Below, piece by piece: positions 13,001 to 64,000 of a DNA stretch of 64,000 nt (positions are counted from its first letter, which is position 1; each line of letters opens with the position of its first letter). Below the pieces are notes generated by a model. That model was not told the origin of the DNA. It made no database searches and saw only the letters and a list, made by a program, of their open reading frames with translations. Position numbers and translations under genes: made by a program. This DNA is from Mobula hypostoma (Eukaryota). The DNA lies in the NCBI RefSeq assembly GCF_963921235.1, contig NC_086108.1, positions 17,794,001 through 17,858,000 of the forward strand, written 5' to 3'.

Positions 13001-13004
13001 CTGG

Positions 13005-14210: not shown

Positions 14211-14224
14211 ATAGTTGTATATTA

Positions 14225-15435: not shown

Positions 15436-15454
15436 TAAATATAGAATGAGTTGC

Positions 15455-15780: not shown

Positions 15781-15784
15781 ATAC

Positions 15785-16670: not shown

Positions 16671-16859
16671 GAATGGTGGATGTGGGTATGACTGCTTCTG
16701 ACATTTAATGTTGCACCCCAATTGCTCCCAATCAGAGATTTTAACAAAAAGTTAACTACATTGGTGGATCAGACTTCAGACAAAAGATGGTAAGGATGAC
16801 AGATTCCCTCCCCCAGGAGAATCAGGTGAGATTTTTCAACTCTACAGTTGTACAGCTTT

Positions 16860-17370
16860 TTTTCACATTTGTTCAAGGGATGTGGGCTTCACAGGCTGAG
16901 CTAGCATTAAATTGCTTATGCCTAGTTGGCCTTGAAAAGGCTGCGGTTAGCTGCCTACTTGAACTACTGGAGTCTGTGAGGTGTGGGTAGTATTGTTATG
17001 GAGATAGTTCCAGGATTTTGATCCAGTGATGGTGAAGGGATGGTGCTGGTTTAGGGTGGATTTTCCAGATGGTGATGTTTCATACTTGTACTGCCCTTGA
17101 CCTTTTACCTATAGAGGTGGTGGGTTTGGAAGGTACTGTCTAAGGAGTTCTGGTGAGTTGCTTCAGTGTGTTCTGTCAATGGTAAAAATTGTCACTGCTA
17201 TAGTAGATAGCAGATGAGTGAATGGTGGTGGATGGGCTTGCTATCAATGGACTTGCTATGTCATGTTTGGTGTAGAGTTTCATGAATATTGCTGAAGCTG
17301 CACTTACCTGCCGAAATGGAGAGTATTCTATTACACTCCTGACTTAAGCCAGGTAGGTGATGGATTAGAT
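16860..17370 (-). mobile_element. Old L2/CR1-group LINE fragment
   Basis: ggatgtgggc...agcattaaattgc...ccttgaaaagg...gttccaggattttgatccagtgatggtgaagg resembles a common chondrichthyan LINE 3' region. Recognition only. Confidence 0.4.
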
Positions 17371-17398
17371 TTTGGTTGTATCTCACTTTTTCCCAGTC

Positions 17399-19161: not shown

Positions 19162-19229
19162 TACTAATCTAAGTCGAACATTTATTGTATTTGTCATACT
19201 GTCAAGATAGAGTCTTTACCAATTTGTTT
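19161..19229 (-). mobile_element. ~70-bp remnant of the satellite-embedded L1 (third copy)
   Basis: gtactaatctaagtcgaacatttattgtatttgtcatactgtcaagatagagtctttaccaatttgttt matches 24599-24667 and 28940-29008, with the same |catctt junction. Confidence 0.93.
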
Positions 19230-22200
19230 CATCTTAACATAACTTCCCGTATGATTCTGAGATGTTTGACACCTGTTATATCACTCAGCTATTCAAGATA
19301 AAAAAGTTTATTGCTCAGTGCATACAGTGCTTTGGCATTAAAAGTATATATTTGGATTTTACTCTAAAGTATGGAAGGCAAACCTTATGGAGTCATCTTA
19401 ATATAACTCCCCACATGATTCTCAGTTGTCTGAGAGCTGTTATATCACTTAGCTACTCAAGATAAAAGAGTTGATTTCTCACTGATTACAGTGCATTGGC
19501 ATTGAAAGAAGTATACATTTCAATTTTACTCAAATCTTCTGACTGCAAACCTATTGGAAACATCTTAACATTACTCCCCTCATGATTCTGAGATGTTTGA
19601 CACCTGTTATATCACTCAGGTATTCAAGATAAAAAAAGTTCATTACTCAGTGCATACAGTGCATCGGCATTAAAGGAAATATTTAAATCAATTTTACTCA
19701 ATAGTACTGAATGCAAACCTTATGGGAACATCTTAATATAACTCCCCACATGATTCTGAATTGTCTGAGAGCTGTTATATCACTTAGCTATTCAAGATAA
19801 AAAAAAGTTGACTTCTCACTGCATGCAGTGCATTGGCATTGAAAGAAGTATACATTTCAATTTTACTCAAAGGTACTAACAGCAAACCTGATGGAAACAT
19901 CTTAACGTAACTACCAATATGATTCTGAGTTGTTTAAGACCTGTTTAATCACTCAGCTCTTCAAGATAAAAAAGTTGATTTCTCAGTGCATACAGTGCAT
20001 TAGCATTGAAAGAAGTATACATTTCAATTGTACTCAAAATTGCTGACTGCAAACCTAAAGGAAACATCTTGACAAACTCCCCACATGATTCTTAGATGTT
20101 TGAGACCTGTTATATCATTCGGCTATTCAAGATAAAAATATTGATTTCTCAGTGCCAACAGTGCCTTGGCATTAAAAGTATATATTTCAATTTTACTCTA
20201 CAGTACTGAATGCAAACCTTATAGAAACATCTTAATATAAATCCCCACTTGATTTTGAGTTGTCTGAGAGCTGTTATATCAGTTAGCTATTTAAGATTAA
20301 ACAGTTGATTTCTCACTGCATGCAGTACATTGGCATTGAAAGAAGTATACGTTTCAATATTACTCAAAGGTACTGACTGCAAACCTGATGGAAACATCTT
20401 AACATCACTCCCTACAGTATTCTGAGACGTTGGACACCTGTTCTTTCACTTAGCTATTCAAAATAAAAAAGTTGATTTCTCAGTGCATACAGTGCATTAG
20501 CATTGAAAGAAGTATGCATTTCAATTTTACTCAAAATTGCTCACTGCAAACCTAATGGAAACATCTTAACATAACTCCCCACATGATTCTGAGATGTTTG
20601 ACACCTGTTATATCACTCAGATATTCAAGATAAAGAAGTTGATTTCTCAGTGCATATAATGCTTTGGCATTAAAGGAAATATATTTCAATTTTACTCAAT
20701 AGCACTGAATGCAAACCTCATGGAAACGTCTTCATATAACTCCCCACTTAATTTTGAGTTGTCTGAGAGCTGTTATATCACTTAGCTAATCAAGATAAAA
20801 GAAGTTGATTTCTCTCTGCATACAGTGCATTGGCATTGAAAGAAGTATACATTTCAATTTTATTCAAAGATACTAACAGCAAACCTGATGGAAACATCTT
20901 AACATAACTCCCTATATGATTCTGAGTTGTTAAGACCTGTTATATCAGTTAGCTATTCAAGATAAAAAGTTTATTTCTCATTGTATACAGAGCTTTGGCA
21001 TTAAAAGTATAGATTTCAATTTTACTCGAAAGTACTGAATGCAAACCTTATGGAAACATCTTAATATAACTCCCCACATAAATTTGACTTGTCTGAGAGC
21101 GGATATATCACTTAGCTATGCAAGATAAAAAAGTTAATTTCTCAGTGCATACAATGCTTTAGCATTAAAAGAAATACGTATTTCAATTTTACTCAATAGC
21201 ACTGAATGCAAACCTTATTGAAACATCTTAACATAATCCCCCACATGATTCTGACTTGTCTGAGAGCTGTAATATCACTTCACGATGCAAGATAAAAAAG
21301 TTGATTTCTCAGTGCATACAGTGCATTAGCATTGAAAGAGGTATACATTTCAATTTTACTGAAAGGTACGGACTGGAAACCTGATGGAAATATCTTAACA
21401 TAATACCCACATGATTCTAAGATATTGGACACCCGTTCAAGATAAAAAAAGTTGATTTCTCCCTGTATACAATGCTTTGGCATTAAAAGAAGTATGTTTT
21501 ACAATTTTACTCAATAGCACTGAATGCAAACCTCATGGAAACATCTTAGCATAACTCCCCACATGATTCTGCATTGTCTGAGAGCTGTTATATCAGTCAG
21601 CTATTCAAGATAAAAAAGTTGATTTTTCAGTGCATACATTGCTTTGGCATTAAAGGAAATATATATTTCAATTTTACTCAATAGCACTGAATGCAAACCT
21701 AATGGAAACATCTTAACAAAGTCACCACATGATTCTTAGATGTTTGAGACCTGTTATATCACTCAGCTATTCAAGATAAAAAAGTTGATTTCTCAGTGGT
21801 ATACAAGTACTTTGGCATTAAAAGAAGTATGTATTTCAATTTTACTCTACAGTACTGAATGCAGACCTTATGGAAACATCTAACATAACTCCCCACATGA
21901 TTCTGACTTGTCTGAGAGCTGTAATATCACTTCGCTTTGCAAGATAAAAAAAGTTGATTTCTCAGTGCATACAGTGCATTAGCATTGAAAGAAGCACACA
22001 TTTCAATTGTACTCAAAATTGCTGACTGCATACCTAAAGGAAACATCTTAACAAACTCCCCACATGATTCTTAGATGTTTGAGACCTGTTATATCATTCG
22101 GCTATTCAAGATAAAAATATTGATTTCTCAGTGCCGACAGTGCTTTGGCATTAAAAGTATATATTTCAATTTTACTCTACAGTACTGAATGCAAACCTTA

Positions 22201-23880
22201 TGGAAACATCTTAATATAACTCCCTGTATGATTCTGAGTTGTTTAAGACCTGTTACATCGCTCAGCTCTTCAAGAAAAAAAGTTGATTTCTCAGTGCATT
22301 CAGTGCATTAGCATTGAAAGAAGTGTACATTTCACTTTTACTCAAAGCTGCTGACTGCAAACTTAGTGGAAACACCTTAACATAATACCCACATGATTCT
22401 GAGATATTGGACACCCGTTATATCACTTAGCTATTCAAGATAAAAAAGTTGATTTCTCAGTGTATACAATGCTTTGGCATTAAAAGAAGTATGTTTTTCA
22501 ATTTTACTCAATAGCACTGAATGCAAACCTAATGGAAACATCTTAACAAAGTCCCCACATGATTCTTAGATGTTTGAGACCTGTTATATCACTCAGCTAT
22601 TCAAGATAAAAAAGTAGATTTCTCAGTGGTATACAAGTGCTTTGGCATTAAAAGAAGTATGTTTTTCAATTTTACTCAATAGCACTGAATGCAAACCTCA
22701 TGGAAACATCTTAGCATAACTCCCCACATGATTCTGCGTTGTCTGAGAGCTGTTATATCACTCAGCTATTCAAGATAAAAAAGTTGATTTTTCAGTGCAT
22801 ACATTGCTTTGGCATTAAAGGGAATATATATTTTAATTTTACTCAATAGCACTGAATGCAAACCTCATGGAAACATCTTAGCATAACTCCCAACATGATT
22901 CTGAGTTCTCTGAGAGCTGTTATATCACTTGGCTAATCAAGATAAAAAAGTTGATTTCTCAGTGCATACAGTGCATTAGCATTGAATGAAGTATACATTT
23001 CAATTTTAATCAAAGGTGCTTACTGCAAACCTGATGGAAACACCTTAACATCACTACCCACATGATTCTGAGTTGTCTGAGAGCTGTTATGTCACTTAGC
23101 TCTTCAAAATAAAAAAGTTGATTACTCACTGCATACTGTGCATTGGCAGTGAAAGAAGTACACATTTCAATTTTACTCAAAGGTACTAACTGCAAACCTG
23201 ATGGAAACACCTTAACATCACTACCCACATGATTCTGAGTTGTCTGAGAGCTGTTATGTCACTTAGCTCTTCAAGATAAAAAAGTTGATTTCTCCGTGTA
23301 TACAATGCTTTGGCATTAAAAGAAGTATGTTTTTCAATTTTACTCAATAGCACTGAATGCAGACCTCATGGAAACATCTTAGCATAATCGCAACATGATT
23401 CTGTGTTGTGTGAGAGCTGTAAAATCACTGAGCTATTCAAGATAAAAAAGTTGATTTTTCAGTGCATACATTGCTTTGGCATTAAAGGAAATATATATTT
23501 CAATTTTACTCAATAGCACTGAATGCAAACCTCATGGATACATCTTAATATAACTCCCCACATGATTCTGAGTTGTCTGAGAGCTTTTATATCACTCATC
23601 TATTCAAGATAAAAGAAGTTGATTTCTCACTGCATAAAGTGCATTGGCATTGGAAAAAGTATACATTTCAATTTTACTCAAAGGTACAGACTGCAAACCT
23701 GATGGAAACATCTTAACATAACTCCCCACATGATTCTGCGTTGTCAGAGAGCTGTTATATCAGTCAGCTATTCAAGATTATAAAAGTTGATTTTTCAATA
23801 CATACATTGCTTTGGCATTAAAGGAAATATACATTTCAATTTTACTCAATAGCACTGAAAGCAAACCCTGGATACATCTT

Positions 23881-24667
23881 TTTTAATATAATGTTTATTG
23901 AGTTTTCAAAAAGAATACCTGAAAAGATAATATCTACCCGACCCCTCCCCTTAACCCTCCCCCCCTCATATAAAGTCCTACCTAGAAAAGAAAAGAAGAA
24001 AAAAAAAAGAAGAGCTGCCTGGGTATTGGAAGGTTTCCACATGCTCCATGGAATTCAAAATAAATTTGATATACTTATTCGTTACTTTCCCCAAGGGACC
24101 AAGATCTTTATCGGAGTACTTAAATATGCCATCCTATCTTTTGTAAATAAGGGTGCCAAATATTCAAAAATGTTATATATTTATCTCTTAAATTATAAGT
24201 AATTTTTTCTGGTGGAATACAACTAGCCATTTCATTATTCCAATGATTCATACTTAAATACGAATCAGATTTCCAAGTAACTGCTATAGTCTTCTTAGCT
24301 ACTGCCAATGCAATTTTTATGAATTCTTTCTGATATTTATTCAATTTAAGTTTCGGCTTTATCCCTTCAATATCACCTAATAGAAATAATACCGGATTAT
24401 GTGGAAGTTGAGTTCCAGTAATTTGTTCCAAAAAGACTCTTAAATTTATCCAAAAGTGTTGAATTTTAAAACAAGACCAAGTAGAATGTAAGAAAGTACC
24501 AATTTCTTGATTACACCGAAAGCATTTATCGGATAGATTTGAATTTAATCTATTTATTTTTTGTGGTGTAATATATAATTGGTGTAAAAAATTATATTGT
24601 ATTAATCTAAGTCGAACATTTATTGTATTTGTCATACTGTCAAGATAGAATCTTTACCAATTTGTTT
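23881..24667 (-). mobile_element. 5'-truncated L1-clade insertion in the satellite, copy A
   Basis: 171-aa ORF with zinc knuckle CFRCNQEIGTFLHSTWSC ending IWHPYL; G-rich 3' UTR, AATAAA and short poly-A on the minus strand; catctt on both sides (23875-23880, 24668-24673). Confidence 0.93.
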
Positions 24668-27600
24668 CATCTTCACATAACTTCCCGCATGATTCTGAGA
24701 TGTTTGACACCTGTTATATCACTCAGCTATTCAAGATAAAAAAGTTGATTACACAGTGCATACAGTGCTTTGGCATTAAAAGTATATATTTGAATTTTGC
24801 TCTAAAGTATGGAATGCAAACCTTATGGAATCAACTTAATATAACTCCCCACATGATTCTCAGTTGTCTGAGAGCTGTTATATCACTTAGCTACTCAAGA
24901 TAAAAGAGTTGATTTCTCATTGCATACAGTGCATTGGCATTGAAAGAAGTATACATTTCAATTTTACTCAAATCTGCTGACTGCAAACCTATTGGAAACT
25001 CCTTAACATTACTCCCCTCATGATTCTGAGATGTTTGACACCTGTTATATCACTCAGGTATTCAAGATAAAAAAAGTTCATTACTCAGTGCATACAGTGC
25101 ATCAGCATTAAAGGAAATATTTAAATCAATTTTACTCAATAGAACTGAATGCAAACCTTTTGGAAACATCTTAACATAACTCCCCACATGATTCTGCGTT
25201 GTCTGAGAGCTGTTATATCACACAGCTATTCAAGATAAAAAAGTTGATTTTTCAGTGCATACATTGCTTTGGCATTAAAGGAAATATATATTTCAATTTT
25301 ACTCAATAGCGCTGAATGCAAACCTCATGGATACATCTTAATATAACTCCCTACACAGTACATTGGCAATGAAAGAAGTATACAATTCAATTTTTCTCAA
25401 AACTGCTGACTGCAAACCTAGCTGAAACATCTTAAGATAACTCCCCACATGATTCTGAGATGTTTGAGACCTGTTATATCATTAGCTATTCAAGATAAAG
25501 AAGTTTTTTTTGTCATTGCATACAGAGCTCTGGCATTAAAAGTATATATTTCAATTTGACTCTAAAGTACTGAATGCAAACCTTATGGAAACATTTTAAC
25601 ATAACTCCCCACATGATTCTGCATTGTCTGTGAGCTGTTATATCACTCAGGTATTCATGATAAAAAAGTTGATATCTCAGTGCGTACAGTGCATTGCATT
25701 GAAAGAAGTACACATTTCAATTTTACTCAAAGGTACTGACTGCAAACCTAATAGAAACAACTTAACATAACTCCCTATATGATTCTGAGTTGTTAAGACC
25801 TGTTACATCAGTTAGCTATTCAAGATAAAGAAGTTTATTTGTCATTGCATACAGAGCTTTGGCATTAAAAGTATATATTTCAATTTGACTCTAAAGTACT
25901 GAATACAAACCTTATGGAAACATCTTAATATAATTCCCCACATGATTCTGAGATGTTTGAGACCTGTGACATCACGCAGCTATTCATGATAAAAAACGTT
26001 GATTTGTCAGTGCATACAGTGCTTTGGCATAAAAAGAAGTATGGTTTTCAATTTTACTCAATAGCATTGAATGCACACCTTATGGAAACGTCTTAATATA
26101 ACTCCCCACTTAATTCTGAGTTGTCTGAGAGCTGTTATATGACTTAGCTATTCAGAATTAAAAAAAGTTGATTTCTCTCTGCATACAGTGCATTGGCATT
26201 GGAAAAAGTAAACATTTCAATTTTACTCAAAGGTACAGACTGCAAACCTGATGGAAAGATCTTAACATAACTCCCCACATGATTCTGAGATGTTTGACAC
26301 CTGTTATATCACTTAGCTATTGAAGATAAAAAAGTTGATGATTCTGAGCTGTCTGTGAGCTGTTATATACTTAGCTCTTCAAGATAAAAAAGTTGATTTC
26401 GAAGTGCATACAGTGCTTTGGCATTAAAGGAAATATATATTTCAATTTTACTCAATAGCACTGAATGCAAACCCATATGGAAACGTCTTAATATAACTCC
26501 CCACTTAATTCTGAGTTGTCTGAGAGCTGTTATATCACTTAGCTATTCAGAATTTAAAAAAGTTGATTTCTCTCTGCATACAGTGCATTGGCATTGAAAG
26601 AAGTATATATTTCAATTTTATTTCAAAGATACTAACAGCAAACCTGATGGAAACATCTTAACATAACTCCCTATATGATTCTGAGTTGTTAAGACCTGTT
26701 ACGTCGCTCAGCTCTTCAAGATAAAAAAGTTGATTTCTCAGTGCATGCAGTGCATTAGCATTAAAATAAGTGTATGTTTCAATTTTACTCAAAACTGCTG
26801 ACTGCAAACCGACTGGAAACATCTTAACATAACTCCCCACATGATTCTGAGATGTTTGAGACCTGTGACATCACTCAGCTATTCAAGATAAATAAGTTGA
26901 TTTCTCAGTGCATACAATACTTTGGCATTAAAAGAAGTATGTATTTCAAGTTTACTCAATAGCACTGAATGCAAACCTAATGGAAACATCTTAACCTAAC
27001 TCCCCACCTGATTCTGCGTTGTCTGAGAGCTGTTATATCACTCAGCTATTCAAGATTATAAAAGTTGATTTTTCAGTGCATACAGTGAATTGGCATTGGA
27101 AGAAGTATACATTTCAATTTTACTCAAAGGTACTGACTGCAAACCTGATGGAAACATCTTAACATAATTACCCACATGATTCTGAGATGTTTGACACCTG
27201 TTATATCGCTTAGCTATTGAAGATAAAAAAGCTGATGATTCTGAGTTGTCTGAGAGCTGTTATATCACTTAGCTATTCAAGATAAAAAAGTTGATTTCTC
27301 ACTGCATACAGTGCTTTGGCATTTAAAGAAGTATACATTTCAATTTTACTCAACAGCACTGAATTGAAACCTAGCTGAAACATCTTAACATAACTCCCCG
27401 CATGGTTCTGAGATATTTGACGCCTGTTATTTCGCTCAGCTCTTCAAGATAAAAAAGTTGATTTCTCAGTGCATACAGTGCATTAGCATTGAAAGAAGTG
27501 TACATTTTACTTTTACTCAAAACTGCGGACTGCAAACCTGATGGAAACATCTTAACATCACTCTCCACATGATTCTGAGATGTTTGACACCTGTTATATC

Positions 27601-28218
27601 ATTTTGCTATTCAAGATAAAAATTTTGATTTCTCAGTGCATACAGTGCTTTGGCATTAAAGGAAATATATATTTCAATTTTACTCAATAGCACTGAATGC
27701 CAACTTTATGGAAACATCTTAATATAGCTCCCCAATTGATTCAGAGTTGTCTGAGAGCTGTTATATTACTTAGCTATTCAAGATAAAAAAGTTGATTTCT
27801 CAGTGCATACAGTGCATTAGCATTGAAAGAGTGTACATTTCAATTTTACTCAAAACTGCTGATTGCAAACCTACTGGAAACATCTTAATATAACTCCCCA
27901 CATGATTCTGAGATGTTTGAGACCTGATACATCATTTAGCTATTCAAGATAAAAAAGTTTAATTCTCATTGCCTACAGTGCTTTGGCATTAAAACTATAT
28001 ATTTCAATTTTACTCTAAAGTACTGAATGCAAACCTCATGGAAACATCTTAACATAATTCCCCACATGATTCTGCATTATCTCAGAGCTGTTATATCACT
28101 TAGCTATTCAAGATTATAAAAGTTGATTTTTCAGTGCATACATTGCTTTGGCATTAAAGGAAATATATATTTCAATTTTACTCAACAGCACTGAATGCAA
28201 ACCTCATGGATACATCTT

Positions 28219-29008
28219 TTTTTTAATATAATTTTTATTGAGTTTTCAAAAAGAATACATGAAAAGATAATATCTACCCGCCCCCCCTCCCATTCACCCT
28301 CCTCCCCCATATAAAGTGCTACCAAGAAAAGAAATGAAGCAAAAAAAAAGAAGAGCCGCCTGGGTATTGGAAGGTTTCCACATGCTCCATGGAATTCAAA
28401 ATAAATTTGGTATACTTATTCGTTACTTTCCCCAAGGGACCAAGATCTTTATCGGAGCACTTAAATATGCCATCCTATCTTTTGTAAATAAGGGCGCCAA
28501 ATATTCAAAAATGTTATATATTTATCTCTTAAATTATAAGTAATTTTTTCGAGTGGAATACAACTAGTCATTTCATTATTCCAACGATTCATACTTAAAA
28601 GCGAATCAGATTTCCAAGTAACTGCTATAGTCTTCTTAGCTACTGCCAATGCAATTCTTATAAATTCTTTCTGATATTTATTCAATTTAAGTTTCGGCTT
28701 TATCCCTTCAATATCACCTAATAGAAACAATACCGGGTTATGTGGAAGTTGAGTTCCAGTAATTTGTTCCAATAAGACTCTTAAATTTATCCAAAAGTGT
28801 TGAATTTTAAAACAAGACCAAGTAGAATGTAAGAAAGTACCAATTTCTTGATTACACCGAAAGCATTTGTCGGATAGATTTGAATTTAATCTATTTATTT
28901 TTTGTGGTGTAATATATAATTGGTGTAAGAAATTATATTGTACTAATCTAAGTCGAACATTTATTGTATTTGTCATACTGTCAAGACAGAGTCTTTACCA
29001 ATTTGGTT
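28219..29008 (-). mobile_element. 5'-truncated L1-clade insertion in the satellite, copy B
   Basis: Same structure and breakpoints as copy A, 4341 bp downstream; catctt at 28213-28218 and 29009-29014. Confidence 0.93.
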
Positions 29009-30019
29009 CATCTTAACAGAACTCCCCGCATGATTCTGAGATGTTTGACACCTGTTATATCACTCAGCTATTCAAGATGAAAAAGTTGATTTTTCAGTGC
29101 ATACAGTGCTTTGGCATTAAAAGAAGCAGGTATTTCTATTTTACTCATTAGTACTGAATGCAAACCTTATGGAATCATCTTAATTTAACTCCCCACATGA
29201 TTCTCAGTTGTCTGACAGCTGTTATATCACTTAGCTACTCAAGATAAAAGAGTTGATTTCTCACTGCATACAGCGCATTGGCATTGAAAGAAGTGTACAT
29301 TTCAATTTTACTCAAAACTGCTTACTGCAAACCTATGGAAACATCTTAACATAACTCCCCACATGATTCTGAGACATTTGAGACCTGTTATATCAGTTAG
29401 CTATTCAAGATGAAAAAGTTTATTTTTCATTGCATACAGTGCTTTGGCATTGAAAGTATAGATTTCAATTTTACTCCAAAGTACTGAATGCAAACCTTAC
29501 AGAAACATCTTAATATAACTCCCCACATGATTCTGAGATGTTTGAGATCTGTTACATCTCGCAGCTCTTCGACACAAAAAAGTTAATTTCTCAGTGCAAA
29601 GAGTGCATTGCCTTTAAGAGAAATATATATTTCAATTTTACTTAATAGCACTGAATGCCAACCTTATGGAAACATCTTAACATAACTCCTCATATGATTC
29701 TGACTTGTCTGAGAGCTGTTATATCACCTAGCTATGGAAGATAAAAAAACTAATTTCTCTGTGCATACAGTGCTTTAGCATTGAAAGAAGTATCCATTTC
29801 AATTTTACTCAAAATTGCTGACTGCAAACCTAATGGAAACATCTTAACAAACTCCCCACATGATTCTGCGATGTTTGACACCTGTTATATCACACAGCTA
29901 TTCAAGATAAAAAAGTTGATTTCTCAGTGCATACAGTGCTTTGGCATTAAAAGAAGTATTTATTTCAATTTTACTCTACAGTACTGAATGCAGACCTTAT
30001 GCAAATATCTTAATATAAC

Positions 30020-31690
30020 TCCCCACTTGATTCTGAGTTGTCTGAGAGCTGTTATATCAGTTAGCTATTCATGATAAAAAAGTTGATTTCTCAGTGCATA
30101 CAGTGCTTTGGCATTAAAAGAAGTATGTTTTTCAAATTTACTCAAAGGTACTGACTGTAAACCTGATGCAAACATCTTAACATAACTTCCCACATGATTC
30201 TGAGTTGTTTGAGAGTTCTTATATACTTAGCTCTTCAAGATAAAAAAAGTTGATTTCTCAGTGCATACAGTGCATTAGCATTGAAAGAAGTGTACATTTC
30301 AATTTTACTCAAAACTGCTGACTGCAAACCCGATGGAAACATCTTAACATAACTCCCCACATGATTCTGCCATGTTTCAGACCTGTTACATCCCTCAGCT
30401 CTTCGAATTAAAAAAGTTGATTTCTCAGTGCATACATTGCTTTGGCATTAAAAGAAGTATGTTTTTCAAATTTACTCAACAGCACTGAACGCAAACCTGA
30501 TGGAAACATCTTAACTTCACTAACCACATGATTCTGAGATGTTTGACACCTGTTATATCACTCAGCTATTCAAGATAAAAAAGTTGATTTCTCACTGCAT
30601 ACAGACTATTGGCATTGAAAGAAGTATACATTTCAATTTTACTCAAAGCTTCTGACTGCAAACCTGATGGAAACATCTTAACATAACTCCCTATATGATT
30701 CTGAGTTGTTTAAGACCTGTTATATCACTCAGCTATTCAAGATAAAAAAGTTGATTACTCAGTGCATACAGTGCTTCGGCATTAAAGGAAATATTTAAAT
30801 CAGTTTTACTCAATAGTACTGAATGCAAACCTTATGGAAACATCTTAATACAACTCCCCACTTGATTCTGAGTTGTCTGAGAGCTGTTATATCAGTTAGC
30901 TATTCATGATAAAAAAGTTGATTTCTCAGTGCATACAGTGCTTTGGCATTAAAAGAAGTATGTTTTTCAAATTTACTCAAAGGTACTGACTGTAAACCTG
31001 ATGCAAACATCTTAACATAACTTCCCACATGATTCTGAGTTGTTTGAGAGTTCTTATATACTTAGCTCTTCAAGATAAAAAAAGTTGATTTCTCAGTGCA
31101 TACAGTGCATTAGCATTGAAAGAAGTGTACATTTCAATTTTACTCAAAACTGCTGACTGCAAACCTCATGGAAACATCTTAACATAACTCCCCACATGAT
31201 TCTGCCATGTTTCAGACCTGTTACCTCCCTCAGCTCTTCGAAATAAAAAAGTTAATTTCTCAGTGGATACAGTGCTTTGGCATTAAAAGAAGTATGTTTT
31301 TCAAATTTACTCAACAGCACTGAACGCAAACCTGATGGAAACATCTTAACCTCACTAACCACATGATTCTGAGATGTTTGACACCTGTTATATCACTCAG
31401 CTATTCAAGATAAAAAAGTTGATTTCTCACTGCATACAGACTATTGGCATTGAAAGAAGTATACATTTCAATTTTACTCAAAGCTTCTGACTGCAAACCT
31501 GATGGAAACATCTTAACATAACTCCCTATATGATTCTGAGTTGTTTAAGACCTGTTATATCACTCAGCTATTCAAGATAAAAAAGTTGATTACTCAGTGC
31601 ATACAGTGCTTCGGCATTAAAGGAAATATTTAAATCAGTTTTACTCAATAGTACTGAATGCAAACCTTATGGAAACATCTTAATACAACT
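30020..31690. repeat. Tandem duplication of a 5-monomer (835-bp) unit
   Basis: cttgattctg at 30026/30861 and caactccc at 30851/31686. Private variants gagagttcttatatact, ctgccatgtttcagac and cagactattgg occur in both halves. Confidence 0.9.
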
Positions 31691-34447: not shown

Positions 34448-34647
34448 NNNNNNNNNNNNNNNNNNNNNNNNNNNNNNNNNNNNNNNNNNNNNNNNNNNNN
34501 NNNNNNNNNNNNNNNNNNNNNNNNNNNNNNNNNNNNNNNNNNNNNNNNNNNNNNNNNNNNNNNNNNNNNNNNNNNNNNNNNNNNNNNNNNNNNNNNNNNN
34601 NNNNNNNNNNNNNNNNNNNNNNNNNNNNNNNNNNNNNNNNNNNNNNN
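34448..34647. other. Assembly gap (200 N)
   Basis: Exactly 200 Ns, typical of a fixed-size scaffolding placeholder. Confidence 0.98.
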
Positions 34648-52600: not shown

Positions 52601-55600
52601 TCAATTTTACACCAAAGTACTTACAGCAAACCTAATGGAAACACCTTAGGTTAACTTCCCACATGATTCTGAGATGTCTGAAAGCTGGTTCATGCCAGTG
52701 CAGTGTATGACAAAAAAGTTGTTTACTCACTGCATACAAAACTTTGACAATACAACTAGTATACATTTCAATTTTACACCAAAGTACTTACAGCAAACCT
52801 AATGGAAACACCTTAGGTTAACTTCCCACATGATTCTGAGATGTCTGAAAGTTGTTTCATGCCACTGCAGTGTAAGACAAAAAAGTTGTTTTCTCAGTGC
52901 ATACAAAGCTTTGACAATACAAATAGTATACATTTCAATTTTACACCAAAGTACTTACAGCAAACCTAATGGAAACACCTTAGGTTAACTTCCCACATGA
53001 TTCTGAGATGTCTGAAAGTTGTTTCATGCCACTGCAGTGTAAGACAAAAAAAGTTGTTTTCTCAGTGCATACAATGCTTTGACAATACAAATAGTATATA
53101 TTTCAATTTTACACCAAAGTACTTACTGCAAACCTAATGGAAACACCTTAGGTTAACTTCCCACATGATTCTGAGATGTCTGAAAGTTGTTTCATGCCAC
53201 TGCAGTGTAAGACAAAAAAGTTGTTTTCTCAGTGCATACAAAGCTTTGACAATACAAGTAGTATACATTTCAATTTTACACCAAAGTACTTACAGCAAAC
53301 CTAATGGAAACACCTTAGGTTAACTTCCCACATGATTCTGAGATGTCTGAAAGTTGTTTCATGCCACTGCAGTGTAAGACAAAAAAGTTGTTTTCTCAGT
53401 GCATACAAAGCTTTGACAATACAAATAGTATACATTTCAATTTTACAGCAAAGTACTTACAGCAAACCTAATGGAAACACCTTAGGTTAACTTCCCACAT
53501 GATTCTGAGATGTCTGAAAGTTGTTTCATGCCACTGCAGTGTAAGACAAAAAAGTTGTTTTCTCAGTGCATACAAAGCTTTGACAATACAAATAGTATAC
53601 ATTTCAATTTTACACCAAAGTACTTACAGCAAACCTAATGGAAACACCTTAGGTTAACTTCCCACATGATTCTGAGATGTCTGAAAGTTGTTTCATGCCA
53701 CTGCAGTGTAAGACAAAAAAGTTGTTTTCTCAGTGCATACAAAGCTTTGACAATACAAATAGTATACATTTCAATTTTACACCAAAGTACTTACAGCAAA
53801 CCTAATGGAAACACCTTAGGTTAACTTCCCACATGATTCTGAGATGTCTGAAAGTTGTTTCATGCCACTGCAGTGTAAGACAAAAAAGTTGTTTTCTCAG
53901 TGCATACAAAGCTTTGACAATACAAATAGTATACATTTCAATTTTACACCAAAGTACTTACAGCAAACCTAATGGAAACACCTTAGGTTAACTTCCCACA
54001 TGATTCTGAGATGTCTGAAAGTTGTTTCATGCCACTGCAGTGTAAGACAAAAAAGTTGTTTTCTCAGTGCATACAAAGCTTTGACAATACAAATAGTATA
54101 CATTTCAATTTTACACCAAAGTACTTACAGCAAACCTAATGGAAACACCTTAGGTTAACTTCCCACATGATTCTGAGATGTCTGAAAGTTGTTTCATGCC
54201 ACTGCAGTGTAAGACAAAAAAGTTGTTTTCTCAGTGCATACAAAGCTTTGACAATACAAATAGTATACATTTCAATTTTACACCAAAGTACTTACAGCAA
54301 ACCTAATGGAAACACCTTAGGTTAACTTCCCACATGATTCTGAGATGTCTGAAAGTTGTTTCATGCCACTGCAGTGTAAGACAAAAAAGTTGTTTTCTCA
54401 GTGCATACAATGCTTTGACAATACAAATAGTATACATTTCAATTTTACACCAAAGTACTTACAGCAAACCTAATGGAAACACCTTAGGTTAACTTCCCAC
54501 ATGATTCTGAGATGTCTGAAAGTTGTTTCATGCCACTGCAGTGTAAGACAAAAAAGTTGTTTTCTCAGTGCATACAAAGCTTTGACAATACAAATAGTAT
54601 ACATTTCAATTTTACACCAAAGTACTTACAGCAAACCTAATGGAAACACCTTAGGTTAACTTCCCACATGATTCTGAGATGTCTGAAAGTTGTTTCATGC
54701 CACTGCAGTGTAAGACAAAAAAGTTGTTTTCTCAGTGCATACAATGCTTTGACAATACAAATAGTATACATTTCAATTTTACACCAAAGTACTTACTGCA
54801 AACCTAATGGAAACACCTTAGGTTAACTTCCCACATGATTCTGAGATGTCTGAAAGTTGTTTCATGCCACTGCAGTGTAAGACAAAAAAGTTGTTTTCTC
54901 AGTGCATACAATGCTTTGACAATACAAATAGTATACATTTCAATTTTACACCAAAGTACTTACAGCAAACCTAATGGAAACACCTTAGGTTAACTTCCCA
55001 CATGATTCTGAGATGTCTGAAAGTTGTTTCATGCCACTGCAGTGTAAGACAAAAAAGTTGTTTTCTCAGTGCATACAAAGCTTTGACAATACAAATAGTA
55101 TACATTTCAATTTTACACCAAAGTACTTACAGCAAACCTAATGGAAACACCTTAGGTTAACTTCCCACATGATTCTGAGATGTCTGAAAGTTGTTTCATG
55201 CCACTGCAGTGTAAGACAAAAAAGTTGTTTTCTCAGTGCATACAATGCTTTGACAATACAACTAGTATACATATCAATTTTACACCAAAGAACTTACAGC
55301 AAACCTAATGGAAACACCTTAGGTTAACTTCCCACATGATTCTGAGATGTCTGAAAGTTGTTTCATGACACTGCAGTGTAAGACAAAAAAGTTGTTTTCT
55401 CAGTGCATACAATGCTTTGACAATACAAATAGTATACATTTCAATTTTACCCCAAAGTACTTACAGCAAACCTAATGGAAACACCTTAGGTTAACTTCCC
55501 ACATGATTCTGAGATGTCTGAAAGTTGTTTCATGATTGTGCAGTGTAAGACAAAAATGTTGTTTTCTCACTGCATACAATGCTTTGAAAATACAACTAGT

Positions 55601-58600
55601 ATACATTTCAATTTTACACCAAAGTACTTACAGCAAACCTAATGGAAACACCTTAGGTTAACTTCCCACATGATTCTGAGATGTCTGAAAGTTGTTTCAT
55701 GCCACTGCAGTGTAAGACAAAAAAGTTGTTTTCTCAGTGCATACAATGCTTTGACAATACAAATAGTATACATTTCAATTTTACACCAAAGTACTTACAG
55801 CAAACCTAATGGAAACACCTTAGGTTAACTTCCCACATGATTCTGAGATGTCTGAAAGTTGTCTCATGGCAGTGCAGTGTAAGACAAAAAAAGTTTGTTT
55901 TCTCAGTGCATACAATGCTTTGACAATACAAATACTAGGCATTTCAATTTTACCCCAAAGTACTTACAGCAAACCTAATGGAAACACCTTAGATTAACTT
56001 CCCACATGATTCTGAGATGTCTGAAAGTTGTTTCATGCCACTGCAGTGTAAGACAAAAAAGTTGTTTTCTCAGTGCATACAATGCTTTGACAATACAAAT
56101 AGTATACATTTCAATTTTACACCAAAGTACTTACAGCAAACCTAATGGAAACACCTTAGGTTAACTTCCCACATGATTCTGAGATGTCTAAAGTTGTTTC
56201 ATGCCACTGCAGTGTAAGACAAAAAAGTTGTTTTCTCAGTGCATACAATGCTTTGACAATACAAATAGTATACATTTCAATTTTACACCAAAGTACTTAC
56301 AGCAAACCTAATGGAAACACCTTAGGTTAACTTCCCACATGATTCTGAGATGTCTGAAAGTTGTTTCATGCCACTGCAGTGTAAGACAAAAAAGTTGTTT
56401 TCTCAGTGCATACAATGCTTTGACAATACAAATAGTATACATTTCAATTTTACACCAAAGTACTTACAGCAAACCTAATGGAAACACCTTAGGTTAACTT
56501 CCCACATGATTCTGAGATGTCTGAAAGTTGTTTCATGCCACTGCAGTGTAAGACAAAAAAGTTGTTTTCTCAGTGCATACAATGCTTTGACAATACAAAT
56601 AGTATACATTTCAATTTTACCCCAAAGTACTTAAAGCAAACCTAATGGAAACACCTTAGGTTAACTTCCCACATGATTCTGAGATGTCTGAAAGTTGTTT
56701 CATGCCACTGCAGTGTAAGACAAAAAAGTTGTTTTCTCAGTGCATACAAAGCTTTGACAATACAAATAGTATACATTTCAATTTTACACCAAAGTACTTA
56801 CAGCAAACCTAATGGAAACACCTTAGGTTAACTTCCCACATGATTCTGAGATGTCTGAAAGTTGTTTCATGCCACTGCAGTGTAAGACAAAAAAGTTGTT
56901 TTCTCAGTGCATACAATGCTTTGACAATACAATAGTATACATTTCAATTTTACACCAAAGTACTTACAGCAAACCTAATGGAAACACCTTAGGTTAACTT
57001 CCCACATGATTCTGAGATGTCTGAAAGTTGTTTCATGCCACTGCAGTGTAAGACAAAAAAGTTGTTTTCTCAGTGCATACAAAGCTTTGACAATACAAAT
57101 AGTATACATTTCAATTTTGCCCCAAAGTACTTACAGTAAACCTAATGGAAACAACTTAGATTAACTTCCAACATGATTCTGAGATGTCTGAAAGTTGTTT
57201 CATGCCACTGCAGTGTAAGACAAAAAAGTTGTTTTCTCAGTGCATACAATGCTTTGACAATACAAATAGTATACATTTCAATTTTACACCAAAGTACTTA
57301 CAGCAAACCTAATGGAAACACCTTAGGTTAACTTCCCACATGATTCTGAGATGTCTGAAAGTTGTTTCATGCCACTGCAGGGTAAGACAAAAAAGTTGTT
57401 TTTTTCAGTGCATACAATGCTTTGACAATACAAATAGTATACATTTCAATTTTACCCCAAAGTACTTACAGCAAACCTAATGGAAACACCTTAGGTTAAC
57501 TTCCCACATGATTCTGAGATGTCTGAAAGTTGTTTCATGCCACTGCAGTGTAAGACAAAAAAGTTGTTTTCTCAGTGCATACAATGCTTTGACAATACAA
57601 ATAGTATACATTTCAATTTTACCCCAAAGTACTTACTGCAAACCTAATGGAAACACCTTAGGTTAACTTCCCACATGATTCTGAGATGTCTGAAAGTTGT
57701 TTCATGCCACTGCAGTGTAAGACAAAAAAGTTGTTTTCTCAGTGCATAGAAAGCTTTGACAATACAAATAGTATACATTTCAATTTTACAGCAAAGTACT
57801 TACAGCAAACCTAATGGAAACACCTTAGGTTAACTTCCCACATGATTCTGAGATGTCTGAAAGTTGTTTCATGCCACTGCAGTGTAAGACAAAAAAAGTT
57901 GTTTTTCTCAGTGCATACAATGCTTTAACAATACAAATAGTATATATTTCAATTTTGCCCCAAAGTACTTACTGCAAACCTAATGGAAACATCTTAGGTT
58001 AACTTCCCACATGCTTCTGAGATGTCTGAAAGTTGTTTCATGCCACTGCAGTGTAAGACAAAAAAGTTGTTTTCTCAGTGCATACAATGCTTTGACAATA
58101 CAATAGTATACATTTCAATTTTACACCAAAGTACTTACAGCAAACCTAATGGAAACACCTTAGGTTAACTTCCCACATGATTCTGAGATGTCTGAAAGTT
58201 GTTTCATGCCACTGCAGTGTAAGACAAAAAAGTTGTTTTCTCAGTGCATACAATGCTTTGACAATACAAATAGTATACATTTCAATTTTACACCAAAGTA
58301 CTTACAGCAAACCTAATGGAAACACCTTAGGTTAACTTCCCACATGATTCTGAGATGTCTGAAAGTTGTTTCATGCCACTGCAGTGTAAGACAAAAAAGT
58401 TGTTTTCTCAGTGCATACAATGCTTTGACAATACAAATAGTATACATTTCAATTTTACCCCAAAGTACTTACAGTAAACCTAATGGAAACACCTTAGGTT
58501 AACTTCCCACATGATTCTGAGATGTCTGAAAGTTGTTTCATGCCACTGCAGTGTAAGACAAAAAAGTTGTTTTCTCAGTGCATACAAAGCTTTGACAATA

Positions 58601-61600
58601 CAAATAGTATACATTTCAATTTTACACCAAAGTACTTACAGCAAACCTAATGGAAACACCTTAGGTTAACTTCCCACATGATTCTGAGATGTCTGAAAGT
58701 TGTTTCATGCCACTGCAGTGTAAGACAAAAAAGTTGTTTTCTCAGTGCATACAATGCTTTGACAATACAAATAGTATACATTTCAATTTTACACCAAAGT
58801 ACTTACAGCAAACCTAATGGAAACACCTTAGGTTAACTTCCCACATGATTCTGAGATGTCTGAAAGTTGTTTCATGCCACTGCAGTGTAAGACAAAAAAG
58901 TTGTTTTCTCAGTGCATACAATGCTTTGACAATACAAATAGTATATATTTCAATTTTACCCCAAAGTACTTACAGCAAACCTAATGGAAACACCTTAGAT
59001 TAACTTCCCACATGATTCTGAGATGTCTGAAAGTTGTTTCATGCCACTGCAGTGTAAGACAAAAAAGTTGTTTTCTCAGTGCATACAATGCTTTGACAAT
59101 ACAAATAGTATACATTTCAATTTTACACCAAAGTACTTACAGCAAACCTAATGGAAACACCTTAGGTTAACTTCCCACATGATTCTGAGATGTCTGAAAG
59201 TTGTTTCATGCCACTGCAGTGTAAGACAAAAAAGTTGTTTTCTCAGTGCATACAAAACTTTGACAATACAACTAGTATACATTTCAATTTTACACCAAAG
59301 TACTTACAGCAAACCTAATGGAAACACCTTAGGTTAACTTCCCACATGATTCTGAGATGTCTGAAAGTTGTTTCATGCCACTGCAGTGTAAGACAAAAAA
59401 GTTGTTTTCTCAGTGCATACAATGCTTTGACAATACAAATAGTATACATTTCAATTTTACACCAAAGTACTTACTGCAAACCTAATGGAAACACCTTAGG
59501 TTAACTTCCCACATGATTCTGAGATGTCTGAAAGTTGTTTCATGCCACTGCAGTGTAAGACAAAAAAGTTGTTTTCTCAGTGCATACAATGCTTTGACAA
59601 TACAAATAGTATACATTTCAATTTTACACCAAAGTACTTACAGCAAACCTAATGGAAACACCTTAGGTTAACTTCCCACATGATTCTGAGATGTCTGAAA
59701 GTTGTTTCATGGCAGTGCAGTGTAAGACAAAAAAGTTTGTTTTCTCAGTGCATACAATGCTTTGACAATACAAATACTATGCATTTCAATTTTACCCAAA
59801 GTAGTTAAAGCAAACCTAATGGAAAAACCTTAGATTAACTTCCCACATGATTCTGAGATGTCTGAAAGTTGTTTCATGCCAGTGCAGTGTAAGACAAAAA
59901 AGTTGTTTTCTCTGTGCATACAATGCTTTGACAATACAACTAGTGTGCATTTCAATTTTACACCAAAGTACTTACTACAAACCTAATGGAAACACCTTAG
60001 GTTAACTTCCCACATGGTTCTGAGATGACTGAAAGCTGGTTCATGCCACTGCAGTGTAAGACAAAAAAGTTGTTTTCTCAGTGCATACAAAACTTTGACA
60101 ATACAACTAGTATACATTTCAATTTTACACCAAAGTACTTACAGCAAACCTAATGGAAACACCTTAGGTTAACTTCCCACATGATTCTGAGATGTCTGAA
60201 AGTTGTTTCATGCCACTGCAGTGTAAGACAAAAAAGTTGTTTTCTCAGTGCATACAATGCTTTGACAATACAAATAGTATACATTTCAATTTTACACCAA
60301 AGTACTTACAGCAAACCTAATGGAAACACCTTAGGTTAACTTCCCACATGATTCTGAGATGTCTGAAAGTTGTTTCATGCCACTGCAGTGTAAGACAAAA
60401 AAGTTGTTTTCTCAGTGCATACAATGCTTTGACAATACAAATAGTATACATTTCAATTTTACACCAAAGTACTTACAGCAAACCTAATGGAAACACCTTA
60501 GGTTAACTTCCCACATGATTCTGAGATGTCTGAAAGTTGTTTCATGCCACTGCAGTGTAAGACAAAAAAGTTGTTTTCTCAGTGCATACAATGCTTTGAC
60601 AATACAAATAGTATACATTTCAATTTTACACCAAAGTACTTACAGCAAACCTAATGGAAACACCTTAGGTTAACTTCCCACATGATTCTGAGATGTCTGA
60701 AAGTTGTTTCATGCCACTGCAGTGTAAGACAAAAAAGTTGTTTTCTCAGTGCATACAATGCTTTGACAATACAAATAGTATACATTTCAATTTTACACCA
60801 AAGTACTTACAGCAAACCTAATGGAAACACCTTAGGTTAACTTCCCACATGATTCTGAGATGTCTGAAAGTTGTTTCATGCCACTGCAGTGTAAGACAAA
60901 AAAGTTGTTTTCTCAGTGCATACAATGCTTTGACAATACAAATAGTATACATTTCAATTTTACACCAAAGTACTTACAGCAAACCTAATGGAAACACCTT
61001 AGGTTAACTTCCCACATGATTCTGAGATGTCTGAAAGTTGTTTCATGCCACTGCAGTGTAAGACAAAAAAGTTGTTTTCTCAGTGCATACAATGCTTTGA
61101 CAATACAAATAGTATACATTTCAATTTTACACCAAAGTACTTACAGCAAACCTAATGGAAACACCTTAGGTTAACTTCCCACATGATTCTGAGATGTCTG
61201 AAAGTTGTTTCATGCCACTGCAGTGTAAGACAAAAAAGTTGTTTTCTCAGTGCATACAATGCTTTGACAATACAATAGTATACATTTCAATTTTACACCA
61301 AAGTACTTACAGCAAACCTAATGGAAACACCTTAGGTTAACTTCCCACATGATTCTGAGATGTCTGAAAGTTGTTTCATGCCACTGCAGTGTAAGACAAA
61401 AAAGTTGTTTTCTCAGTGCATACAATGCTTTGACAATACAAATAGTATACATTTCAATTTTTCCCCAAAGTACTTACAGCAAACCTAATTGAAACATCTT
61501 AGGTTAACTTCCCACATGATTCTGAGATGTCTGAAAGTTGTTTCATGCCACTGCAGTGTAAGACAAAAAAGTTGTTTTCTCAGTGCATACAATGCTTTGA

Positions 61601-64000
61601 CAATACAAATAGTATACATTTCAATTTTACACCAAAGTACTTACAGCAAACCTAATGGAAACACCTTAGGTTAACTTCCCACATGATTCTGAGATGTCTG
61701 AAAGTTGTGTCATGGCAGTGCAGTGTAAGACAAAAAAGTTTGTTTTCTCAGTGCATACAATGCTTTGACAATACAAATACTATGCATTTCAATTTTACCC
61801 CAAAGTACTTACAGCAAACCTAATGGAAACACCTTAGATTAACTTCCCACATGATTCTGAGATGTCTGAAAGTTATTTCATGCCACTGCAGTGTAAGACA
61901 AAAAAGTTGTTTTCTCAGTTCATACAATCTTTTGACAATACTAATAGTATACATTTCAATTTTACAGCGAAATACTTACTGCAAACCTAATGGAAACACC
62001 TTAGGTTAACTTCCCACATGATTCTGAGATGTCTGAAAGTTGTTTCATGCCACTGCAGTGTAAGACAAAAAAGTTGTTTTCTCAGTGCATACAAAGCTTT
62101 GACAATACAAATAGTATACATTTCAATTTTACACCAAAGTACTTACAGCAAACCTAATGGAAACACCTTAGGTTAACTTCCCACATGATTCTGAGATGTC
62201 TGAAAGTTGTTTCATGCCACTGCAGTGTAAGACAAAAAAGTTGTTTTCTCAGTGCATACAATGCTTTGACAATACAAATAGTATACATTTCAATTTTACA
62301 CCAAAGTACTTACTGCAAACCTAATGGAAACACCTTAGGTTAACTTCCCACATGATTCTGAGATGTCTGAAAGTTGTTTCATGCCACTGCAGTGTAAGAC
62401 AAAAAAGTTGTTTTCTCAGTGCATACAATGCTTTGACAATACAAATAGTATACATTTCAATTTTACACCAAAGTACTTACAGCAAACCTAATGGAAACAC
62501 CTTAGGTTAACTTCCCACATGATTCTGAGATGTCTGAAAGTTGTTTCATGCCACTGCAGTGTAAGACAAAAAAGTTGTTTTCTCAGTGCATACAATGCTT
62601 TGACAATACAAATAGTATACATTTCAATTTTACACCAAAGTACTTACTACAAACCTAATGGAAACACCTTAGGTTAACTTCCCACATGATTCTGAGATGT
62701 CTGAAAGTTGTTTCATGCCACTGCAGTGTAAGACAAAAAAGTTGTTTTCTCAGTGCATACAATGCTTTGACAATACAACTAGTATACATATCAATTTTAC
62801 ACCAAAGAACTTACAGCAAACCTAATGGAAACACCTTAGGTTAACTTCCCACATGATTCTGAGATGTCTGAAAGTTGTTTCATGCCACTGCAGTGTAAGA
62901 CAAAAAAGTTGTTTTCTCAGTGCATACAATGCTTTGACAATACAAATAGTATACATTTCAATTTTACCCCAAAGTACTTACAGCAAACCTAATGGAAACA
63001 CCTTAGGTTAACTTCCCACATGATTCTGAGATGTCTGAAAGTTGTTTCATGCCACTGCAGTGTAAGACAAAAAAGTTGTTTTCTCAGTGCATACAATGCT
63101 TTGACAATACAACTAGTATACATTTCAATTTTACACCAAAGTACTTACTGCAAACCTAATGGAAACACCTTAGGTTAACTTCCCACATGATTCTGAGATG
63201 TCTGAAAGTTGTTTCATGCCACTGCAGTGTAAGACAAAAAAGTTGTTTTCTCAGTGCATACAAAACTTTGACAATACAACTAGTATACATTTCAATTTTA
63301 CCCCAAAGTACTTACAGCAAACCTAATGGAAACACCTTAGGTTAACTTCCCACATGATTCTGAGATGTCTGAAAGTTGTTTCATGCCACTGCAGTGTAAG
63401 ACAAAAAAGTTGTTTTCTCAGTGCATACAATGCTTTGAAAATACAACTAGTATACATTTCAATTTTACACCAAAGTATTTACCGCAAATCTGATGGAAAC
63501 ACCTTAGGTTAACTTCCCACATGATTCTGAGATGCCTGAAAGTTGTTTCATGCCACTGCAGTGTAAGACAAAAAAGTTGTTTTCTCAGTGCATACAATGC
63601 TTTGACAATACAAATAGTATACATTTCAATTTTACACCAAAGTACTTAGAGCAAACCTAATGGAAACACCTTAGGTTAACTTCCCACATGATTCTGAGAT
63701 GTCTGAAAGTTGTTTCATGGCAGTGCAGTGTAAGACAAAAAAGTTGTTTTCTCAGTGCATACAATGCTTTGACAATACAAATACTATGCATTTCAATTTT
63801 ACCCCAAAGTAGTTAAAGCAAACCTAATGGAAACACCTTAGGTTAACTTCCCACATGATTCTGAGATGTCTGAAAGTTGTTTCATGCCACTGCAGTGTAA
63901 GACAAAAAAGTTGTTTTCTCAGTGCATACAATGCTTTGACAATACAAATAGTATACATTTCAATTTTACACCAAAGTACTTACGCAAACCTAATGGAAAC
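34648..64000. repeat. Homogeneous 167-bp tandem satellite (about 176 monomers, runs off the window); candidate centromeric array
   Basis: atgccactgcag at 34651, 34818, 34985 (period 167). No transposon interruption; same orientation and shared motifs with the diverged array. Confidence 0.98.

What the first reader, a model, noticed from the sequence alone, without database searches (positions are those of the whole stretch)
19230..64000. Candidate centromere: layered 167-bp satellite with an old diverged flank and a young homogeneous core
Seen: transposon-dense DNA gives way to diverged, L1-invaded monomers, then to an uninterrupted near-identical array of the same 167-bp family in the same orientation. 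Known: primate alpha-satellite and plant centromeres have this layered layout and roughly nucleosome-sized AT-rich monomers. Inferred: this is a pericentromere leading into a centromeric core, probably in a cartilaginous fish. I do not recognise the monomer as a described satellite, but cannot exclude that it is one.
Basis: partly seen in the sequence, partly recalled or inferred. Interest (0 to 1): 0.75.

Follow-up and report, generated by a model that had tools for sequence, protein, structure and literature searches.

The report
Major 167-base satellite of a ray
This is the edge of a field of a very abundant 167-base repeat that is a reasonable but unproven candidate for the centromere DNA of a group of rays, with an old form and a young form sitting on either side of an assembly gap.

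Summary
The 167-bp tandem family at 19230-64000 is real and all in one orientation. (1) A 200-N assembly gap (34448-34647) lies exactly at the switch from diverged to homogeneous monomers, so they are not shown to be adjacent. (2) They are two separate subfamilies: consensuses 77.8% identical, no gradient on either side. (3) The 'L1 invasion' is one L1 insertion, later copied by local duplication. In support: the window is interstitial (per the scan's index). In the best-matching public DNA run, 85,954 of 29.4 million contig records lie on one monomer, which roughly suggests megabases of the family. Three other organism labels carry the family in tandem with different variants. That run's commonest alleles differ from this array's, so this array is one variant among several, not clearly the youngest core. 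No CENP-A, FISH or genome-wide mapping was possible. Layered centromeric satellites and satellite-gap-satellite layouts are well known. I found no description of this monomer, but could not search Repbase, Dfam, GenBank or the VGP satellite catalogue. The scan had not noted it on other DNA. Verdict: a new member of a known kind; centromere-associated about 0.6.

The parts
17396..19149 (+). LINE fragment (endonuclease and start of reverse transcriptase; CR1-like by my recall) that stops inside the RT domain at the junction with the satellite block
   Evidence: Pfam Exo_endo_phos_2 and RVT_1; tblastn extent
19150..19229 (-). Third, partial copy of the L1 piece; forms the left edge of the satellite field, so the edge is a rearrangement breakpoint, not a fading-out
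   Evidence: 94% identical to 24589-24670 and 28930-29010
19230..23876 (+). Diverged 167-bp monomers, block 1 (types A and B, loosely alternating)
23870..24667 (-). 5'-truncated L1 3' end with poly(A) tail and a 6-bp target-site duplication at a TCTT/AA site; copy 1
   Evidence: 177-aa frame 24120-24653 matches human L1 ORF2p C-terminus, E 4.6e-9; junctions printed
24668..28214 (+). Diverged monomers, block 2, with three truncated-monomer junctions
28208..29008 (-). Copy 2 of the same L1 insertion
   Evidence: 95.5% identical to copy 1 over 805 bp, same breakpoints, offset 4340 bp
29009..34447 (+). Diverged monomers, block 3; holds a recent five-monomer (835-bp) tandem duplication at about 30006-31675
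   Evidence: pairs 97-100% identical at offset 835
34448..34647 (.). 200-N assembly gap of unknown true size, exactly at the subfamily switch
34648..64000 (+). Homogeneous monomeric array, about 176 copies, no insertion, no regular higher-order repeat, almost no CpG; runs off the window. Monomer 40281-40447 equals the array consensus

Best explanation
The window shows the outer edge of a centromere-associated satellite field built from one of the genome's major tandem repeats. The family has gone through successive rounds of amplification. An old subfamily with two alternating monomer types (a decayed dimer-like repeat) survives as a 15-kb relic; it took one L1 insertion by target-primed reverse transcription and was then reshuffled by 0.8-5.4 kb local duplications. 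A younger, monomeric subfamily has been amplified and kept homogeneous by local duplication or unequal exchange. The two were joined across a gap by scaffolding. The homogeneous array is one local or chromosome-specific variant, not the commonest form in the best-matching run. Shown: anatomy, two subfamilies, single L1 event, very high abundance in one run, tandem relatives in three other organism labels. Inferred: megabase scale, age order, true neighbourhood across the gap, centromere association. Not shown: CENP-A binding.
For: Anatomy. Flank and core each form one side of a 100/100 branch (26 of 77 flank and 15 of 174 core monomers). Abundance: in run X1, 85,954 of 29,410,082 contig records lie on one monomer, summed depth 2.2-4.1 x 10^7 in the central bins, while the window's array holds only 3,899 distinct 31-mers. 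Head-to-tail joints in 4 of 4 runs laid (72, 17, 14, 8 contigs). The flank allele at column 137 (77 of 77 flank, 0 of 174 core) makes up 3-11% of depth in all four runs, so flank-type is a minority and core-like forms are shared by labels A-D, which suggests the flank split off earlier. Runs X5, X9, X13 share another variant at columns 56-65 that is rare in X1 (1% at columns 63 and 65, 16% at column 56): rapid lineage-specific turnover. Position: notes lie 16.5 Mb before and 22.5 Mb beyond the window on the same piece. [quoted passage not shown]
Against: No CENP-A, FISH, Hi-C or whole-genome map (no genome held). Only one side of the field is seen, so mirror symmetry is untested. The gap leaves adjacency unproven. 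No gradient in the flank. Summed contig depth is not a copy number (stated by the tool), laying at 80% likeness under-counts flank-type contigs, and I could not rank this family against other satellites; earlier notes report other sizeable satellites in this genome. X1 may be another individual or a sister species (it holds 0.84 of the words). No CENP-B box, no 10-bp AA/TT periodicity, no excess dyad symmetry. Melters et al. name exceptions (maize knobs, tammar wallaby) and find that monomer length is not diagnostic.
Confidence: 0.6

Rival explanations
1. A major but non-kinetochore satellite: a pericentromeric or interstitial heterochromatin block (like mouse major satellite or maize knobs), with CENP-A sitting on another sequence.
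For: All the features seen (homogeneous array, diverged edge, high abundance, fast turnover) also arise in non-centromeric satellites (general knowledge); maize knobs outnumber CentC (PMC4053949); no centromere-type sequence signal; other satellite blocks of 13.5 and 74 kb noted in this genome (unchecked).
Against: Abundance of megabase order and persistence across four organism labels fit a pan-chromosomal repeat; C-bands in rays are mainly centromeric; gap-flanking interstitial layout.
Confidence: 0.25
2. The layered picture is an assembly product: the diverged block is a relic of an old or abandoned centromere or a stray array, and the homogeneous contig was placed next to it by scaffolding, in a guessed orientation, though it belongs further in or on another chromosome.
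For: 200-N gap exactly at the switch, phase jump, zero shared 31-mers between the two sides, no intermediate monomers on either side; pure satellite contigs have little unique sequence to anchor them (general knowledge).
Against: Both sides are the same family in the same orientation (a 1-in-2 event by chance); contigs commonly break at just such transitions; steep steps between layers are real in human centromeres (10.1101/2021.07.12.452052, passages).
Confidence: 0.15

Closest known systems
Human alpha satellite with layered expansions (Altemose et al. preprint 10.1101/2021.07.12.452052, passages read)
   Same: About one nucleosome long, AT-rich, homogeneous TE-free array beside diverged monomers that hold L1 and segmental duplications; a steep step in divergence between the two; two monomer types in the old layer (A/B types of alpha satellite recalled, not from a call).
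   Different: Here the young array is monomeric with no regular higher-order repeat; only one old layer, with no age gradient, no inversion and one L1 event; no CENP-B box; the two parts are separated by a gap; symmetry and CENP-A untested. Sequence homology to alpha satellite was not tested and none is expected.
Xenopus laevis FCR/Fcr1 centromere repeat, about 174 bp (10.1101/2020.06.23.167643, passages read)
   Same: Non-mammalian vertebrate family of nucleosome-sized AT-rich monomers whose variants differ between chromosomes, as the allele mismatch between this array and run X1 suggests here.
   Different: FCR is proven by CENP-A ChIP and FISH; this family is not. Sequence not compared.
VGP Phase I satellite catalogue and its satellite-gap-satellite configurations (PMC13320880, supplement 2 part 2 read)
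   Same: Same layout: 9,254 such configurations in 540 assemblies; 128 satellite families already catalogued from cartilaginous fishes, with monomer lengths near nucleosome multiples.
   Different: That catalogue found no order-specific satellite shared by two or more cartilaginous fish species, whereas this family was seen in tandem under four organism labels (probably close relatives).
Putative centromere of red stingray chromosome 4 (10.1101/2025.06.08.657570, passages read)
   Same: A ray; a central region rich in tandem repeats with low CpG methylation frequency and low Hi-C contact across it.
   Different: The passages read name no satellite or monomer ('satellite' and '167' occur 0 times in the main text); its supplements were not seen.

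Membership tests
Centromeric satellite DNA | Bound by CENP-A / site of kinetochore assembly | not testable with these tools
   No ChIP or CUT&RUN data available
Centromeric satellite DNA | One large array at the primary constriction of most chromosomes | not testable with these tools
   No whole genome held; only the interstitial position is known
Centromeric satellite DNA | Very high copy number, usually the most abundant tandem repeat | tested here: inconclusive
   85,954 of 29,410,082 contig records in X1 on one monomer; rough 2-40 Mb under stated assumptions; rank among satellites not measured
Centromeric satellite DNA | Long homogeneous head-to-tail array free of transposons | tested here: met
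   174 full monomers, 97.0% pairwise, no insertion over 29 kb
Centromeric satellite DNA | Rapid turnover between related species | tested here: met
   Columns 56, 63, 65 differ between X1 and X5, X9, X13; shares come from the minority of contigs that could be laid there
Layered-expansion centromere (alpha-satellite type) | Older diverged layer of the same family flanking a homogeneous array | tested here: inconclusive
   Both present and same family, but separated by a 200-N gap
Layered-expansion centromere (alpha-satellite type) | Age gradient away from the core | tested here: not met
   Flank identity to core consensus flat over 15 kb, rho -0.08, p 0.48; to own consensus rho -0.04. Only one layer is visible
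Layered-expansion centromere (alpha-satellite type) | Accumulated TE insertions and inversions in the old layer | tested here: inconclusive
   One L1 insertion in three copies, no inversion
Layered-expansion centromere (alpha-satellite type) | Mirror symmetry on the other arm | not testable with these tools
   Array runs off the window
Layered-expansion centromere (alpha-satellite type) | Higher-order repeats in the active array | tested here: not met
   Largest lag z 3.3 against a 95% null maximum of 3.2 under local permutation; identity 97.0-97.4% at all lags 1-59
CENP-B-box-bearing satellite (mammalian type) | 17-bp CENP-B box | tested here: not met
   0 exact matches; best 6 of 9 core positions (motif recalled)
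L1 (LINE-1) insertion | ORF2 C-terminus, poly(A) tail, target-site duplication at a TTTT/AA-like site | tested here: met
   E 4.6e-9 to human ORF2p residues 1098-1247; zf-RVT clusters at 0.95-0.97; tail and 6-bp duplication. Pfam gave no family for this frame

The most novel reading that the evidence does not exclude
This is the functional centromere satellite of a lineage of rays, not yet described by sequence, and at least three generations of it can be read: an old two-type relic, a form shared by several related species, and a recent sweep in one lineage that is itself split into array-specific variants. That would give cartilaginous fishes a first probe for CENP-A and FISH work, and would show fast centromere turnover in genomes otherwise known for slow change.
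Probability: 0.4. Interest if true: 0.55.

Novelty: new member of a known kind. Interest (0 to 1): 0.35.

Why it matters
The searches I ran found no sequence-defined centromere satellite for any shark or ray; the Squalomix preprint says the putative centromeric structure 'remained uncharacterized in earlier studies'. A confirmed monomer would let centromeres be placed in ray assemblies and would make a test of rapid centromere turnover in this lineage straightforward. The architecture itself is textbook and is expected many times in any long-read vertebrate assembly, so a specialist would find it useful rather than surprising.

Tried and rejected
Whole-genome mapping: no genome held. Graded layering: rejected, no trend in flank or core; flank-type alleles in core monomers average 1.0 of 37 and show no trend with distance from the gap (rho 0.04, p 0.64). 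Repeated L1 invasion: rejected. Regular higher-order repeat in the core: not found. Origin of the monomer from a known RNA or from the neighbouring LINEs: 0 Rfam matches at E up to 1 on four monomers; no nhmmer hit at E below 10 in 1-19229 or in L1 copy 1. Nucleosome-phasing periodicity (p 0.90 core, 0.20 flank), dyad symmetry (p 0.57, 0.81) and DNA folding energy (p 0.58, 0.37): none beyond shuffles. The homogeneous array as a false duplication: unlikely, 103 distinct sequences among 174 monomers and longest exact repeat 1,001 bp. Sequencing runs: no RNA holder listed, which says nothing about expression. Labels E and F and the small runs of label C had small shares that I did not lay; the core monomer has a PstI site, so reduced-representation libraries could be enriched for it, and I drew no abundance inference from small runs. 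Six 12-15 base motifs of the monomer: 0 papers hold two or more. Earlier scan notes by sequence, near and relatives: 0 windows. PMC9233505 is not held.

Full report
OBSERVATION. Tandem Repeats Finder gives a 167-bp period from 19230 to the end of the window, at 80-81% matches up to 34445 and 97% from 34648. All monomers lie on one strand. I cut the field into 77 full diverged monomers (partial ones left out) and 174 full homogeneous monomers. Diverged monomers are 89.7% identical to their own consensus and 83.4% to each other; homogeneous ones 98.3% and 97.0%. At least 53% of 1-19229 is covered by LINE reading-frame fragments (Pfam RVT_1 or endonuclease hits for 4 of 9 frames scanned).

A run of exactly 200 N lies at 34448-34647, precisely where the two kinds of monomer meet. 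The monomer phase jumps from position 112 to 48, where 146 would be expected if 200 in-register bases were merely hidden, so this is a join of unknown length (that 200 N is a usual scaffolding gap size is my recall). The two sides are separate subfamilies. Their consensuses differ at 37 of 167 columns, 21 of them nearly fixed; they share no 31-mer; and a tree of 26 of the 77 flank and 15 of the 174 core monomers splits them at 100/100. The core consensus is further from the flank consensus (77.8%) than any flank monomer is (85% or more), so the core did not grow out of these local monomers. There is no gradient: flank identity to the core consensus averages 73.6% and is flat with position (rho -0.08, p 0.48), and steps from 72-76% to 93-99% across the gap.

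THE OLD BLOCK. The two 800-bp interruptions are 95.5% identical with the same breakpoints, and the end of a third copy forms the left edge of the field at 19150-19229. The monomers beside them are duplicated too (offsets 4340 and 5439 bp; 94.5-97.6% for the first three monomers after copies 3 and 1). The insert encodes the C-terminus of an L1 ORF2 protein (E 4.6e-9 to human ORF2p; zf-RVT clusters; no Pfam family), lies on the minus strand, ends in a poly(A) tail and has a 6-bp target-site duplication at TCTT/AA, which matches the L1 endonuclease preference (recalled). This is one insertion, copied afterwards. The old monomers fall into two types (34 and 43 monomers, 15 diagnostic columns; first component 14.2% against at most 4.8% in shuffles) that alternate more than chance (21 of 70 neighbours alike against 35 expected, p 0.00035, not corrected for duplicated segments). 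I read this as a decayed dimer-like repeat.

THE YOUNG ARRAY. It holds 103 distinct sequences among 174 monomers, no regular higher-order repeat, and a longest exact repeat of 1,001 bp. Carriers of rare variants lie closer than chance (median 24 monomers against 51) and several common variants shift along the array, as expected from local duplication. It has 10 CpG in 29 kb, no CENP-B box, and no excess of AA/TT periodicity, dyad symmetry or folding energy.

BEYOND THE WINDOW. No whole genome is held. Of 24 runs listed, 20 hold some sampled words, under six coded organism labels. I laid 4 of them (labels A-D) on monomer 40281-40447, which equals the array consensus. Records laid: X1 85,954 of 29,410,082; X5 20,521 of 34,216,178; X9 1,480 of 527,333; X13 351 of 5,200,301. 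All four show head-to-tail joints. Summed depth in X1 is 2.2-4.1 x 10^7 in the central bins. The tool states that this is no copy number. As a rough inference only, allowing a 5- to 31-fold overcount and a single-copy depth of 25-75 (the range of 6 of the 8 long X1 records listed), it corresponds to 2-40 Mb; recurrent read errors will inflate the record count. Two results matter. First, X1's commonest alleles are not this array's: column 45 G is 62% of depth against 0 of 174 monomers, column 115 G 89% against 28 of 174, column 81 A 31% against 0, column 109 G 20% against 0. Much of the family therefore lies in other arrays or further along this one, or X1 is another population or species (it holds 0.84 of the words). 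This fits array-specific variants of a multi-chromosome satellite, and counts against calling this array the youngest core. Second, X5, X9 and X13 lose 94-98% of their peak depth at columns 55-60, and the contigs that do lay there share other alleles (56 T 93-98%, 63 A 85-87%, 65 C 57-82%), two of which are the flank's alleles. The flank-specific allele at column 137 is only 3-11% in all four runs, though laying at 80% likeness under-counts flank-type contigs. The simplest reading, inferred, is three generations: flank type oldest, a core-like form shared by labels B-D, and a newer sweep in label A and in the window's genome. Earlier notes place the window 16.5 Mb from one noted locus and 22.5 Mb from another on the same piece, so it is interstitial, and call the organism a ray or devil ray (unchecked).

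HOW IT MOST LIKELY WORKS. New monomer variants are amplified in tandem, homogenise by local duplication or unequal exchange, and displace older ones, which then decay, take insertions and are rearranged. A family of this abundance and turnover is most often the centromere repeat (PMC4053949, passages), ray C-bands are mainly centromeric (PMC8033572, passages), and assemblies that are not gapless show metacentric centromeres as satellite-gap-satellite (PMC13320880 supplement 2 part 2). I give 0.6 to a centromere-associated field, 0.25 to a major non-kinetochore satellite and 0.15 to an assembly juxtaposition. That this particular 29-kb array carries CENP-A is less likely, about 0.3. Against the best reading: nothing functional was tested, only one side is visible, the rank among satellites is unknown, and monomer length is not diagnostic.

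COMPARISON AND NOVELTY. It works like the layered alpha-satellite centromere (10.1101/2021.07.12.452052, passages) and like Xenopus FCR with chromosome-restricted variants (10.1101/2020.06.23.167643, passages), but the age gradient and higher-order repeats were tested and not met, and the defining CENP-A test could not be run. The layout is common: 9,254 configurations in 540 assemblies. Eight searches (listings only unless named) found no description of a 167-bp or centromeric satellite in sharks or rays. Passages read in 10.1101/2025.06.08.657570, PMC13100897, 10.64898/2026.10.27.761883 and PMC11406177 (a Y-linked shark satellite only) name none. This is weak evidence: the VGP catalogue already lists 128 cartilaginous-fish families whose sequences I could not see (one supplementary file was too large), bioRxiv supplements were closed, older cytogenetic papers in subscription journals are not held, and Repbase, Dfam and GenBank could not be searched. 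The scan's own notes hold no look-alike.

VERDICT. A real, very abundant satellite family with a readable history and a fair claim to be centromeric; a new member of a well-known kind. Interest 0.35.

Noticed in passing
run X13, record 11, laid on window 40281-40447: A 377-base contig of low depth (4.9) under organism label D holds a monomer with 28 differences next to one identical to this array's consensus over 155 bases, although D's common form differs. It may be a low-copy pre-existing variant (library model), cross-contamination or a contig artefact; the tool flags it as near-identical and possibly this DNA's source.
   Followed up: no
window 34648-64000: The young array is almost free of CpG (10 in 29 kb, observed/expected 0.01, against 0.20 in the old block and 0.30 in the LINE-rich flank), so it cannot be silenced or mapped by CpG methylation.
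   Followed up: partly
monomer columns 41-65 (window 40321-40345): This segment is the most variable both between old and young subfamilies and between organism labels, while columns 17-32 and 117-136 stay nearly constant. Possible constraint, not tested.
   Followed up: partly
window 26258-26483 and 27155-27380: The same truncated junction (monomer cut after base 80, resuming at base 22) occurs twice, another sign of copying within the old block.
   Followed up: no
window 2640-12860: Fragments of what looks like one old L1-type element on the plus strand (endonuclease at 2950, RT at 7895, C-terminal part at 11831-12858) are split by nested younger LINE insertions, including a near-complete minus-strand RT frame at 4552-5772.
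   Followed up: no
window 17396-19229: A LINE stops in the middle of its RT domain and joins directly to the L1 piece that starts the satellite field, with no tail: a deletion or duplication breakpoint.
   Followed up: partly
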